From positions 18,228,001 through 18,292,000 of the forward strand of contig NC_135802.1 of assembly GCF_964213995.1 (NCBI RefSeq): 64,000 nucleotides of DNA. Direction: 5' to 3'. The notes beneath the pieces were generated by a model, which ran no database searches, was not told the DNA's origin, and worked only from the letters and a program-made list of their open reading frames with translations. Position 1 is the first letter of the stretch; each line of letters starts with the position of its first letter. Positions 241-5,153 of the stretch are shown piece after piece. This stretch comes from Mustelus asterias. Lineage: Eukaryota. The position numbers and the translations under genes were made by a program.

Positions 241-1809
241 TAATGATGTTCAGAATCTATATCATACCCATGGAAATGCATTGGTAATTGAAGCTCTATG
301 TTAATGCAGGAGAGAGGTAGTGAGGTTGCAAGGTTTAAGGAGGGAATTACACAATGTAGTTTAGAGACAGCTGAAGACTTGGCTCGGCAGCCATAGAAGA
401 GGCTCGAGAAAATTGGGGCGCACAAGAGTTCACTGAACATTGTAGGGCAGGCAATGGTGACAAGAGACTGGGAGGATACAGAGTTATCCATCCAAGCTCG
501 CAGATGACTACTTGAGGAATGGAATGGTTTGGAGTAGGAACTTACGAATGGACATAAGTAAACTGAGTGGGCAAAAGTAAGACAGGTAGAATTCGGTCTG
601 AAGGAGTGTGAGGTGGCAATTTGTCTGCAGTTCAAGGGCAATTTGTCAGAAGTTCTAATGCTCCACAGTGAAGCAGTTGCTTTATTATTTACTTTTATCT
701 CAAGTCTACTGTATTTACACATTATTATTTAGCTCAATGGTTGGTGCACCAAATGCACTTATTTAGATCATTAAGATGAGAATGATAACAAGAGTAAGAA
801 ATAAGACTAAGAAATATAAGCTATTGATCCAACTAGGAAGTCACGGTTCCTCTTTAAACATTGAGCCTCCTCTTGCCACGACATTATTTCTCCTATCTTT
901 AACAGCAAAGCTGATGACATTAGAAAGTGTATATCCCTAAGAACCAAGGAGGTTTCAGTCTTGTTGATAATCAGGCACGGTGATAAGAAGCACACATGCA
1001 TATCTTATTATTTCTCCCCTCTTCCAGTTTTTTAGTTAGTCTGAATATCTTCTTTGAAACCATCTCCTGTAATGACCCAAATCATGTTTGAGTGAGGCAT
1101 CTCATGGCAGATGCCTTTAATTAGACATTTTCCTGTACCCTTCAAAATGTTTTGTGCCTATTTTGTTCAAAGTCGACAGGAGCATGAGGAAGGCAATGGG
1201 GACTGGAGTAAGTGACAGGAACAACATTGTCTCCCCTCAATGAGATTTAAGGACTGAGGAAGAAACAGAGGAATGAAGTTGAAAGAGGGTGAATTAAAGT
1301 CAAATCAGGCATAGGAAGTAAAAAAGGAAAAATGGCTTAACAAGAGAAAAAGGCAAAGGAAAATAAAGTAAACTTAATGAATTTAGAATTTACAAAACCT
1401 CAAAACAATTTGTAGGAATGAGGTTGAATAACTTGTTCCCTTTCCTGGTCAGACAGGTTGATTGGCATTGCAGTATTAATTATCATGTGGGTAAAAGGTT
1501 AGTTACACTCTTAATCACCAATCCGAACTTTGTGTGGCAATCTTAATGGGCATTTAATGCATAACCAGCACGTTCTTAAAAATAACAGGAAGACTAAGGC
1601 AAGATTCAGTTTGTGAAAAGCCAATGGTGTATACTGACCAGCAAGTTCTGGAGATTCACAACTCATGGTGTATCTTTTAATCCCCTGGACCAGCTGGCTA
1701 ATTTGGGAATTAATGACGTGACCTGTTATCCTAGAGCCAGAGTATCTTCAATAACCTCCCGCCTGATCTAATGCATCTTTAGAGGCCTCAACACTGCTCA
1801 TCCCAGTTA

Positions 1810-2035
1810 TAGAACATAGAACATTACAGCGCAGTACAGGCTCTCGATGTTGTGCCGACCAGTGAAACCAATCTAAAGCCCATCTAACGTACACTATTCC
1901 AATATCTTCCATATGTTTATCCAATGACCATTTAAATGCCCTTAATGTCCACTACTGTTGCAGGCAGGGCATTCCACGTCCTTACTACTCTCTGAGTAAA
2001 GAACCTATCTCTGACATCTGTCCTATATCTATCAC
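1810..2035 (-). mobile_element. CR1 LINE 3' end fragment
   Basis: FFTQRVVRTWNALP motif and an (TTCTATG)n tail on the minus strand. Confidence 0.85.
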
Positions 2036-2115
2036 AAATAGGTATATCTAGTTTGAGTGTTTCCTCACATTTCACCCAGATGACTGCTCTTTTCCAGAAC
2101 ATGTTGTCACTATTG

Positions 2116-2645
2116 CGTGCAGTTCTGGTCACCACACTATCAGAAGGATGTTGAAGCTTTGGAGAGAGTGCAAAGAAAGTCGTTGCCTGGTCTTGAGGGT
2201 GTTGGCTATGAGGAGAGGTTGAATAAACCAGGATTGTTTTCACGGGAAAGACGGAGGCTGAAGGGAGATCTGGTAGAGGTCTACAAAGTTATGAAAGGCA
2301 TAGACAGGGTGGATAATCAGAGACTTTTTCCAAGGGTGGAAGTGTCAATTACAAGGGGGCACAGGTTCAAGGTGAGAGAGGAAAGTTTAAGGGAGATGTG
2401 TGGGAAAAGTTTTTTTTATGCAGAGGGTGGTGGGTGCCTGGAACGCACTGCCAGAGGATGTGGTGGAAGCAGGCACATTAGCAACATTTAAGAGACACTT
2501 GGATGGGTACATGAATAGGGAGGAAATAGAGGAATATGGACCGAGTGAGGGCAGAATGTTTTTTTTAAAGTTAGAGCATCACAATTGGTGCAGGCTTGGA
2601 GGGCCGAAGGGCCTGTTCCTGTGCTGTACTTTTCTTTGTTCTATC
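2116..2645 (+). mobile_element. 5'-truncated CR1 LINE (RT C-terminus and 3' UTR)
   Basis: QFWSPHYQKDVEALERVQR...RRRLKGDLVEVYK; 3' end gggccgaagggcctgtt...ttctttgttct. Confidence 0.92.
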
Positions 2646-3015
2646 TGCACTATTTTCTCAGAAAATACCATAGAAACTAACCACAAATTCACTAAAATGT
2701 TTACCTTTATCTGAGCCATGTTTTCAAATGAATATTAGGAATGAGGTTCAAGGTCAACATATTAAAACTGTTTGAATGCCTAGTTATTCTACTTTCTAAA
2801 ACTGATTTAAAAAGGTGCAGTTTAGTCATTTGTGCGCTAATATTTGAAGCAAAAAGAGTTAGCCACGGTAAAGTTTGTTAGTGCCATAGACAAAGTAAAT
2901 GGAGCTTTAGAAAGGAAGTTTTCAAAAAACACACACATGCATGCATATTTGCTTTCGATAAAGACAAAAAAGCACCAGACATGGGACTACTGCTATCCAC
3001 CATTTAGTCTCTTAC

Positions 3016-3063
3016 CAAATGGAGAAGGTGAATTCTCGACCTGGAAAGTGCATAAATCAAGAC
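3016..3063 (-). CDS. KMT2C: Probable alternative 48-nt KMT2C cassette exon, phase 1/1: (G)LDLCTFQVENSPSPF
   Basis: Acceptor gtcctgtag and strong donor TTG|gtaaga. Open and frame-preserving after exon ~28. Flanked by TGCATG motifs and a (TG)n tract. Confidence 0.7.
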
Positions 3064-3455
3064 CTACAGGACCCAAACCAGATAAAATGGATGAATAACT
3101 GGGAAATAAAGACCAAAAGAAAACGAAAGAAGCACACACACACACACGCACACAGTATACCCAACTCAACAGCATGCAACAGTCATTGGGCAATACAGCA
3201 TAAAGTAGCATAATCATTGATTGTTAATGGCTTTAGGTAATTGCATCAAGTAGCAAAGCAATTTACAACAAAATAAATCTTGGGAAAATTCAAACAGCTG
3301 CTGTTCAGGCACAAAAGCATCTTGCTACAAATAAGAACTGGACTAGAAGCAAGAGAAACTTAGCCAAAGTGACATGTTCAAACTTCACAGGAACCCACAT
3401 ACTTTTCCACTGCAAAGATGCTGTTCATGAGCTTCACAACATTGCACAGACCTAC

Positions 3456-3560
3456 CCGACTCATCTCCTGTTTTCCCCAGTTCATCAGAAAGCATTCCAA
3501 GAATATCATCTTCTGTGGTAAGGACTTCTGAGAGATCAGCTAATGCGTCATCTCCATTAC
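3456..3560 (-). CDS. KMT2C: KMT2C exon (~28), 105 nt, phase 1/1: (G)NGDDALADLSEVLTTEDDILGMLSDELGKTGDES
   Basis: Within ORF 3385..3624. Acceptor ttttgcttgttctgcag, donor CGG|gtaggt. Matches human DDPLADISEVLNTDDDILGIISDDL. Confidence 0.95.
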
Positions 3561-4018: not shown

Positions 4019-4833
4019 CTGGGCGGAGAAGTGGCAGATGGACTTCAACACAGATAAATGCGTAGTGGTCCATTTTGGCAGGTCAAATGGGATGAAGGAG
4101 TACAATATTAAGGGAAAGACTCTTAGTACTGTAGAGGATCAGAAGGACCTTGGGGTCCGGGTCCATAGGGCTCTAAAATCGGCCCCACAGGTGGAGGAGG
4201 TGGTTAAGAAGGCGTATGGTGTGCTGGCCTTTATCAATCGAGGGATTGAGTTTAGGAGTCCGGGGATAATGATGCAGCTATATAAGACCCTCGTCAGACC
4301 CCACTTGGAGTACTGTGCTCAGTCCTGGTCGCCTCACTATAGGAAGGATGTGGAAAAGATTGAAAGGGTGCAGAGGCGATTTACAAGGATGTTGCCTGGA
4401 TTGAGTGGCATGCCTTATGAGGATAGGCTGAGGGAGCTCGGTTTTTTCTCCTTGGAGAGACGTAGGATGAGAGGAGACCTAATAGAGGTATATAAGATGT
4501 GGAGAGGCATAGATCGGGTGGACTCTCAGAGGCTTTTTCCCAGGGTGGAAATGGCTGCTACGAGAGGACACAGGTTTAAGGTGCTGGGGGGTAGGTACAG
4601 GGGAGATGTTCGGGGGAAGTTTTCCACAGAGAGGATGGTGGGCGAGTGGAATCGGCTGCCATCAGTGGTGGTGGAGGCAAACTCAATAGGGTCTTTTAAG
4701 AGACTCCTGGATGAGTACATGGGACTTAATAGGATGGAGGGTTATAGGTAGGCCTAGAAGGTAGGGATATGTTCGGCACAACTTGTGGGGCCGAAGGGCC
4801 TGTTTGTGCTGTAGTTTTTCTATGTTTCTATGT
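4019..4833 (+). mobile_element. Young 5'-truncated CR1 LINE with an uninterrupted 237-aa ORF2 C-terminus
   Basis: ORF 4038..4751 (WQMDFNTDKC...LVRPHLEYC...RRRMRGDLIEVYK); (TTTCTATG)n tail. Confidence 0.95.
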
Positions 4834-5153
4834 TAAAGGGGCATTTGCATAAACTGGTAAAAGACAAGTTTAAGAGTGATACAAGGAAGCACTAATAGCG
4901 CATACAGAATAACTGACACATGAAATGGTTTTCCAAGTGGGGTAGTGGAGACAAGGAATTCACTGGAGATGCAAGTTAATGTTGTGACGAGACCATAGCT
5001 TGGGACAGAAGAATGAGTTGAATGGGACAAATGGCTTACCTTACCTGAACCTAAGTTATGGCTGTTGATATATGTCTAAAAAGCACACAATGGAGGTTCT
5101 TTTCATTCTTAATGGCAAACATTAGTACTGAGTGTTGTGTGTCCCATACGTAC

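What the first reader, a model, noticed from the sequence alone, without database searches (positions are those of the whole stretch)
2931..3178. Extra 48-nt KMT2C cassette exon surrounded by RBFOX and UG-repeat splicing elements
Seen: a 48-nt phase 1/1 exon (3016-3063, GLDLCTFQVENSPSPF) with a strong TTG|GTAAGA donor, 392 nt after exon ~28. Two overlapping TGCATG hexamers lie about 70-80 nt downstream (plus-strand catgca at 2936-2941 and 2940-2945). One more TGCATG (3173-3178) and a (TG)n tract (about 3132-3153) lie upstream. Established: downstream UGCAUG sites are RBFOX elements that promote inclusion in neurons and muscle, and UG repeats bind TDP-43 and CELF proteins. From memory, canonical human KMT2C lacks this peptide (SVDHS-DIGP), although similar peptides may occur in fish orthologues. 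Inference: a tissue-regulated exon adding 16 aa with SPSP phospho-sites.
Basis: partly seen in the sequence, partly recalled or inferred. Interest (0 to 1): 0.7.

Follow-up and report, generated by a model that had tools for sequence, protein, structure and literature searches.

The report
Ancient muscle/brain exon of KMT2C
A 48-base optional exon in a shark's gene for the chromatin enzyme KMT2C is kept from sharks to mammals together with a downstream RBFOX-type motif, and its likely human counterpart is used mainly in skeletal muscle, heart and brain, so these tissues likely make a KMT2C form with 16 extra amino acids whose job is untested.

Summary
Observation confirmed; interpretation largely supported. 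Window 3016-3063 (minus strand) is a real in-frame cassette exon of KMT2C. RNA-type contigs of related organisms show it spliced in (1 run) and skipped (2 runs). The 16-aa peptide occurs in database isoforms from sharks, fish, amphibians, reptiles, birds and mammals, and 14 species have both forms. Two orthologous loci (sauropsid-like, teleost-like) keep TGCATG at +73 and +62 (shark +71/+75); the 30 nt before the exon are 30/30 identical between shark and the sauropsid-like locus. A published GTEx table (ASCOT) lists a 48-nt human KMT2C exon at the expected place: inclusion 91% skeletal muscle, 48-64% heart, 9-52% brain, 2% liver. Not supported: the (TG)n tract is absent from the one orthologue where it could be checked, and the tandem SPSP is not conserved; the conserved core is GLD(L/F)C-FQV. 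RBFOX causality, tissue pattern in shark and peptide function are untested. The exon is annotated and catalogued, but I found no paper studying it. The scan had not noted it on other DNA.

The parts
3016..3063 (-). 48-nt phase 1/1 cassette exon of KMT2C, adds GLDLCTFQVENSPSPF
   Evidence: joint 3454|3061 in run X6; skip joint in X1, X9
3456..3560 (-). 105-nt upstream coding exon (itself skipped in two database isoforms)
3064..3455 (-). 392-nt GT-AG intron (351 nt in L011)
3064..3093 (-). 30-nt acceptor region, G-interrupted, with TCAT/CCAT pair at -31/-27 (likely branch point; also YCAY); 30/30 identical to L011
3098..3131 (-). U/C-rich tract upstream of the likely branch point; candidate PTBP-type repressor site (inferred); a U-rich tract sits at a similar place in L011
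3132..3154 (-). (TG)n tract; not present in L011, shorter in the C12 copy
3173..3178 (-). upstream TGCATG (-115); L011 has only GCATG at -73
3003..3015 (-). donor GTAAGA followed by ACTAAA; 16/20 nt identical to L011
2936..2945 (-). TGCATGCATG at +71/+75, RBFOX-type motif; TGCATG at +73 in L011 and +62 in L012
2877..2882 (-). ACTAAC at +134, QKI-type motif (motif recalled); ACTAAT at +108 in L011 and +19 in L012
1..3015 (-). window part of the 10,081-nt downstream intron; next exon begins at G000:C2:18220934

Best explanation
This is a frame-preserving 48-nt cassette exon of KMT2C, spliced in or skipped in RNA-type contigs of related organisms and conserved across jawed vertebrates, that is likely included mainly in striated muscle and brain, likely because RBFOX proteins bind the conserved TGCATG 60-75 nt downstream. 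Shown: exon, both junction types, frame, peptide conservation, position of the motif in three lineages. From a published table: the tissue pattern of the likely human orthologue. Inferred: in most cells a PTBP-type repressor on the upstream U/C tract keeps the exon out; RBFOX, probably helped by QKI at downstream ACTAAY, brings it in; the 16 residues add a short hydrophobic motif (GLD[LF]CxFQV..F) in a probably unstructured linker, about 30 residues before an invariant unannotated block, and so likely tune a protein partnership of KMT2C rather than its SET-domain chemistry.
For: Inclusion joint 3454|3061 with GT-AG ends in run X6; skip joint, upstream exon to L004:6935, in runs X1 and X9. Both forms in database isoforms of 14 species. 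Peptide letter-identical in sharks, gar, Xenopus, caecilian, turtles, alligator, birds and marsupials. TGCATG at +71/+75, +73, +62, the only copy in 1,427 nt of L011 and in 757 nt of L012; background chance of a TGCATG start in 25 nt is 0.010. Acceptor 30/30 identical shark vs L011, control upstream exon 16/30; synonymous codons unchanged 11 of 14 vs 12 of 24. Human 48-nt KMT2C exon chr7:152195522-152195569: muscle 91.2, left ventricle 63.9, atrium 48.4, 13 brain regions 9.3-51.6, and under 4 in 28 of the 33 other tissues with a value. RBFOX downstream-activation rule and brain/heart/muscle expression: PMC4317164 passages.
Against: No call shows RBFOX binding or dependence; the exon is not among the 4 Mll3 rows of a 16,036-row mouse table with Rbfox target calls. 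The three informative RNA runs are three different organisms of unknown tissue, none shown to be the window's species, and their RNA nature is the tool's guess, so tissue regulation in shark is extrapolated. Human cerebellum is low (9-14) and ovary (22) and pituitary (35) are raised, which RBFOX alone does not obviously explain. Orthology of the human row rests on gene, length and position, using a recalled hg19-to-hg38 offset, not on sequence. The structure model is low-confidence throughout (mean pLDDT 44). Acceptor pyrimidine content is ordinary (12/19), so a 'weak 3' site' is not shown.
Confidence: 0.75

Rival explanations
1. Same exon and tissue pattern, but the main switch is loss of PTBP1 and/or QKI activation; the TGCATG is only an accessory element.
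For: Muscle and heart exceed brain; ACTAAY lies within 150 nt downstream in 3 of 3 loci, background 0.086 per 150 nt (noticed after the fact); upstream U/C tract in shark and L011; ASCOT text attributes shared neuron/muscle exons partly to Ptbp1 down-regulation.
Against: ACTAAY position wanders (+134, +108, +19) whereas TGCATG stays at +62 to +75.
Confidence: 0.15
2. The peptide is a tolerated spacer; exon conservation comes mostly from RNA-level constraint on splicing signals.
For: Synonymous sites are unusually conserved (11 of 14 shark vs L011; 8 of 10 shark vs L012) and identity runs unbroken from 30 nt of intron into 25 nt of exon; no Pfam, PDB or atlas match for the region.
Against: Substitutions are conservative (L/F, E/D, V/I/M) and G1, F7, Q8 are invariant in 30 of 30 distinct variants; mean column conservation 0.86 vs 0.77 and 0.76 in the flanking exons; length almost always 16.
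Confidence: 0.2
3. In this shark the exon is not tissue-regulated; inclusion in X6 and skipping in X1/X9 reflect species differences or mixed low-level inclusion.
For: The three runs are different organisms; no shark species was seen with both forms (each shark protein cluster had one member).
Against: Both forms within 14 other vertebrate species; motif conserved in position; human pattern strongly tissue-specific.
Confidence: 0.07
4. The (TG)n tract (TDP-43 or CELF site, recalled) is a core regulator of the exon.
For: It is the only TG tract of this length in 108 kb of gene-sense sequence and lies at -70 to -91.
Against: No (TG)3 or longer run in 330 nt upstream in L011; length differs in the C12 copy, as for any microsatellite. 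It may still modulate splicing in this lineage.
Confidence: 0.05

Closest known systems
Human KMT2C exon chr7:152195522-152195569 (hg38), ASCOT Supplementary Data 2, PMC6952364 (one table row and main-text passages seen)
   Same: Same gene, 48 nt, lies about 950 nt upstream of the exon that starts DIGP (assembly offset recalled); lemur, loris and vole isoforms carry the peptide at this junction.
   Different: A row in a table of tissue-specific exons; no cis-element, evolutionary or functional analysis seen. Human sequence not retrieved here.
RefSeq predicted KMT2C isoforms, e.g. XP_041040301.1 (Carcharodon), XP_078393147.1 (Cetorhinus), XP_005162602.1 (Danio)
   Same: Contain the insert at the same junction; identical peptide in the two sharks.
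   Different: Automated models, no tissue or regulatory information.
RBFOX/PTBP1-regulated alternative micro-exons of 51 nt or less (Li et al. 2015, PMC4317164; abstract, passages and supplements 1-3 searched)
   Same: Length, frame symmetry, conserved flanks, downstream TGCATG, brain/heart/muscle use.
   Different: This exon is not in their 145 brain-specific or 310 novel lists (only another, 23-nt MLL3 exon); CLIP support not available here.
Tissue-specific micro-exons of chromatin and transcription regulators: KDM1A/LSD1 8a, TAF1 34', MEF2 beta (review PMC11701043, passages seen)
   Same: Small in-frame insert in a ubiquitously used regulator; MEF2 beta is also brain plus striated muscle.
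   Different: Those described as SRRM4 targets use UGC next to the acceptor; here no TGC lies within 55 nt upstream in shark or L011, and 48 nt exceeds 27 nt. KMT2C is not mentioned in that review.

Membership tests
Frame-preserving cassette exon | Canonical splice sites, length divisible by 3, open frame with both neighbours | tested here: met
Frame-preserving cassette exon | Both inclusion and skipping junctions exist | tested here: met
   Inclusion 5' joint in X6, skip joint in X1 and X9; both forms in 14 species' isoform sets. The exon-to-next-exon joint was not seen in RNA contigs (X6 gave 0 contigs), only in protein models.
RBFOX-activated brain/muscle micro-exon (51 nt or less) | TGCATG in the proximal downstream intron, conserved | tested here: met
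   +71/+75, +73, +62 in 3 of 3 loci
RBFOX-activated brain/muscle micro-exon (51 nt or less) | Conserved intronic flanks | tested here: met
   Acceptor 30/30 and donor 16/20 vs control exon 16/30 and 9/20; one pair only
RBFOX-activated brain/muscle micro-exon (51 nt or less) | Inclusion enriched in brain, heart, skeletal muscle | tested here: inconclusive
   Met for the likely human orthologue in a published table; no tissue labels for shark runs
RBFOX-activated brain/muscle micro-exon (51 nt or less) | RBFOX binding (CLIP) and dependence (knock-down or motif mutation) | not testable with these tools
   Exon absent from the one mouse target table searched; Rbfox CLIP and knock-out papers asked for were not held
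SRRM3/4-dependent neural microexon | 3-27 nt long | tested here: not met
   48 nt; size class from search listing abstracts
SRRM3/4-dependent neural microexon | UGC enhancer next to the 3' splice site | tested here: not met
   Nearest TGC at -71 (shark), -56 (L011), none in 32 nt of L012; kmt2c/mll3 absent from 12 supplement files of PMC12626424
TDP-43/CELF UG-repeat-regulated exon | Conserved UG repeat beside the exon | tested here: not met
   Present in shark, absent in L011, not checkable in L012
Proline-directed phospho-switch (SPSP) | Conserved tandem S-P sites | tested here: not met
   First S 27/30 and P 24/30, second S 13/30 distinct variants; a single S-P site remains possible; phosphorylation not testable

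The most novel reading that the evidence does not exclude
The exon installs a 450-million-year-old docking motif (GLD[LF]CxFQV..F) next to an invariant, unannotated ~43-residue block of KMT2C, creating a muscle- and neuron-specific KMT2C/COMPASS complex with a different partner; because the clinical reference transcript lacks the exon, variants in it or in its downstream TGCATG would be a hidden, tissue-restricted route to KMT2C disease.
Probability: 0.3. Interest if true: 0.75.

Novelty: new member of a known kind. Interest (0 to 1): 0.42.

Why it matters
KMT2C is an H3K4 methyltransferase mutated in a neurodevelopmental syndrome (PMC5656305, passages seen). If orthology holds, about 90% of human skeletal-muscle transcripts, half or more in heart and up to half in forebrain carry 16 residues that the reference numbering lacks. 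Small tissue exons in other chromatin regulators (LSD1, TAF1) change their complexes. The shark comparison reduces the candidate control elements to a short list (30-nt acceptor, one TGCATG, ACTAAY) and the peptide to a 10-residue core, which makes both regulation and function directly testable. It is not a new kind of system: the exon is in RefSeq models and in a published tissue table.

Tried and rejected
RNA structure as the cause of the conserved acceptor: no support, z from +0.9 to -1.7 in 9 folds; a hairpin over the shark donor (z -1.7) is not kept in L011 or L012. 'Weak pyrimidine tract': 12/19 pyrimidines is mid-range among 27 acceptors, only the G count (6/19) is the highest (other acceptors were picked as the best AG near each match). 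SRRM4-type control: rejected (length, no nearby UGC). No RNA holder on record was listed for the stretch; runs X2 and X4 covered only the LINE repeat, X8 gave nothing and X6 gave 0 contigs on the downstream exons (the tool warns this can be false). Fold prediction on a 30-row alignment was uninformative (mean pLDDT 44; insert coil at about 40; even the PHD region was poor); no fold search was run on it. PDB sequence search gave only a chance hit at E=1; atlas no usable hit; Pfam nothing over the region. The Mll3 exon in the Qki knock-out table (PMC6429586 supplement) is 105 nt, probably the upstream exon, not this one. PMC7935315 supplements gave only an unrelated KMT2C donor event (12 of 19 files searched); PMC5630039 gave nothing (16 of 27 files beyond the fetch limit and 1 unreadable). 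The 119 of 120 hits with the insert, 24 are biased by the query and were not used as a frequency. My regex marked P0283 as skipping although it has the insert; not counted. Earlier-findings look-ups returned nothing on this exon.

Full report
Setting. The window is G000:C2:18228001-18292000 of a 3.7-Gb genome. It carries KMT2C on the minus strand: exon translations match KMT2C proteins in order and match white-shark KMT2C P0102 at 80-100% in 27 pieces, so the host is a shark (inferred). Introns hold many LINE fragments.

Observation. The upstream 105-nt exon ends in phase 1, the 48-nt exon begins and ends in phase 1, and the next exon, 10,081 nt further on and outside the window, begins CT GGA TTG GAC. 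Inclusion reads ...DES-GLDLCTFQVENSPSPF-AGLDIGP, skipping reads ...DES-AGLDIGP. TGCATG density in 108 kb of gene-sense DNA is 0.41 per kb; three within 548 nt occur in 0.29% of windows, and this is the only 1 of 27 mapped exon matches with the hexamer in the 200 nt downstream. The two downstream hexamers overlap and count as one site.

Splicing evidence. Of 9 RNA-type runs listed (RNA status is the tool's guess) I laid 6. Run X6 (organism C) has a contig joining 3454 to 3061 across a 392-nt GT-AG intron with 46 letters on the exon side. Runs X1 (organism A) and X9 (organism F) join the upstream exon straight to the next exon, shown by the loose-end letters at L004:6935. X2, X4 and X8 were uninformative, and X6 gave no contig on the downstream exons. 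Tissues are hidden, and the three organisms differ.

Protein conservation. The insert is present in database isoforms of sharks, skate, gar, bowfin, teleosts, frogs, caecilian, turtles, alligator, birds, squamates, marsupials and placentals including lemur, loris and voles. No human, ape or mouse isoform with the insert was among the listed hits. Both forms occur within 14 species: Danio rerio, Lepisosteus, Xenopus laevis, Rhinatrema, Dermochelys, Pelodiscus, Petaurus, Dromiciops, Macrotis, Physeter, two Equus, Nycticebus, Acinonyx (predicted models, at most 15 members listed per cluster). Among 30 distinct full-length variants G1, F7 and Q8 are invariant and L2, C5, F16 are 29/30, while the second Ser of SPSP is 13/30. 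In a 30-row alignment the insert scores 0.86 against 0.77 and 0.76 for its neighbours. It lies between the PHD fingers and the HMG box, about 30 residues before a nearly invariant block without Pfam match (P0018 645-687).

Intron conservation. A degenerate exon pattern found 2 loci in metagenome contigs, evidently host DNA: L011 encodes a sauropsid-type and L012 a percomorph-type peptide (inferred). TGCATG lies at +73 in L011 and +62 in L012, the only copy in each locus; background chance per 25 nt is 0.010. The 30 nt before the exon are identical in shark and L011, against 16/30 for the upstream exon; donors 16/20 against 9/20; L012 keeps a near copy. ACTAAY, the QKI motif as recalled, lies within 150 nt downstream in 3 of 3. 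The TG tract is missing in L011 and cannot be checked in L012, which holds only 32 nt upstream.

Tissue pattern. ASCOT Supplementary Data 2 (PMC6952364; one row and main-text passages seen) lists a 48-nt human KMT2C exon, chr7:152195522-152195569, with GTEx inclusion of 91.2 in skeletal muscle, 63.9 and 48.4 in heart, 19.8-51.6 in 11 brain regions, 9.3 and 14.0 in cerebellum, 34.5 pituitary, 21.7 ovary, 8.1 testis, 7.4 adrenal, 5.4 bladder and under 4 in the other 28 tissues with a value (51 columns, 2 marked -1). Placement: c.4441C>T p.Arg1481* is at hg19 151891591 (PMC5656305, passages); Arg1481 matches the Arg 21 residues after the D of DIGP, and the loris skip isoform has it at 1479 against 1496 with the insert, so the reference lacks the exon and the DIGP exon starts at hg19 151891653. 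With the recalled offset of +302,915 the ASCOT exon is about 950 nt upstream of that acceptor, where the orthologue should be (the mouse intron after a 105-nt Mll3 exon is 1,220 nt). I put orthology at about 0.95; the human letters were not seen.

Mechanism. Most likely the exon is off by default, through a PTBP-type repressor on the U/C tract upstream of the branch region, and is switched on in striated muscle and neurons by RBFOX at the conserved downstream TGCATG, probably with QKI (all inferred; RBFOX and PTBP1 rules from PMC4317164 passages). The conserved TCAT/CCAT pair at -31/-27 is probably the branch point; it is also a YCAY pair in a place where NOVA represses (recalled), which could explain why brain, and cerebellum most of all, is lower than muscle; this is speculation. 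The product is KMT2C with 16 more residues in a probably flexible linker (model too weak to prove disorder). The conserved hydrophobic core points to a docking motif rather than a tandem phospho-site.

Against. No RBFOX binding or dependence data were found; the exon is absent from the mouse table of PMC5989265 (4 Mll3 rows of 120, 105, 213 and 162 nt; 12 of 15 files searched) and from the micro-exon lists of PMC4317164. Tissue regulation in the shark is extrapolated from human. Strong synonymous conservation leaves open that part of the peptide conservation is RNA-driven. Intron comparisons rest on three loci.

Literature. Ten full-text searches found no paper on this exon; the library lacks most subscription journals. 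Passages only were seen of PMC11701043 (no KMT2C mention), PMC11419088 (none), PMC6429586 (GO table and one supplement row), PMC11863264 and PMC8437376 (KMT2C isoforms, exon not named); supplement searches only for PMC5630039, PMC12626424 and PMC7935315. Porter 2018, Irimia 2014, Weyn-Vanhentenryck 2014 and Jacko 2018 were not held and were not seen.

Verdict. Real, ancient, alternatively spliced exon (about 0.97); muscle/heart/brain-enriched in shark too (about 0.8); RBFOX-driven (about 0.7). It works like, and on the testable features belongs to, the RBFOX-type brain/muscle micro-exons; it fails the SRRM3/4 tests. It is annotated and catalogued but apparently unstudied. Interest 0.42.

Noticed in passing
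G000:C12:92111071-92112710 (L002, L008), copy of window 1808-3433: A 1.6-kb, 95.6%-identical copy of the unspliced region including the cassette exon (with a 3-nt deletion) sits on another contig. It starts 23 nt into the upstream intron and ends exactly at the (GTTCTAT)n 3' tail of a sense CR1-like LINE remnant (family name recalled), as expected if LINE machinery reverse-transcribed intron RNA, possibly an excised exon-skipped intron. No clear target-site duplication. It can confuse read mapping at this exon.
   Followed up: partly
L004:6934-6443 (three exons; P0018 residues 645-687): A block of about 43 nearly invariant acidic-hydrophobic residues, predicted weakly as three short helices, with no Pfam or atlas match, 30 residues after the insert: an unannotated conserved KMT2C module.
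   Followed up: partly
window 3456-3560: The 105-nt upstream exon is skipped together with the cassette in Danio rerio X13 and Rhinatrema X7; a 105-nt mouse Mll3 exon, probably this one, drops from 0.81 to 0.66 in Qki knock-out cortex. Frogs add a 15-nt extension at this junction and some mammals use an acceptor 9 nt further into the next exon: a small splicing module.
   Followed up: partly
window 3039-3046: Inside the cassette, TTCCAG|GT is unchanged at the DNA level in all three loci; it resembles an internal acceptor or donor whose use would shift the frame (25 or 23 nt). No contig showed its use.
   Followed up: no
window 4020-4850, 1808-2660 and many other places: LINE fragments with reverse-transcriptase-like frames fill the introns; they dominate read laying.
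   Followed up: no
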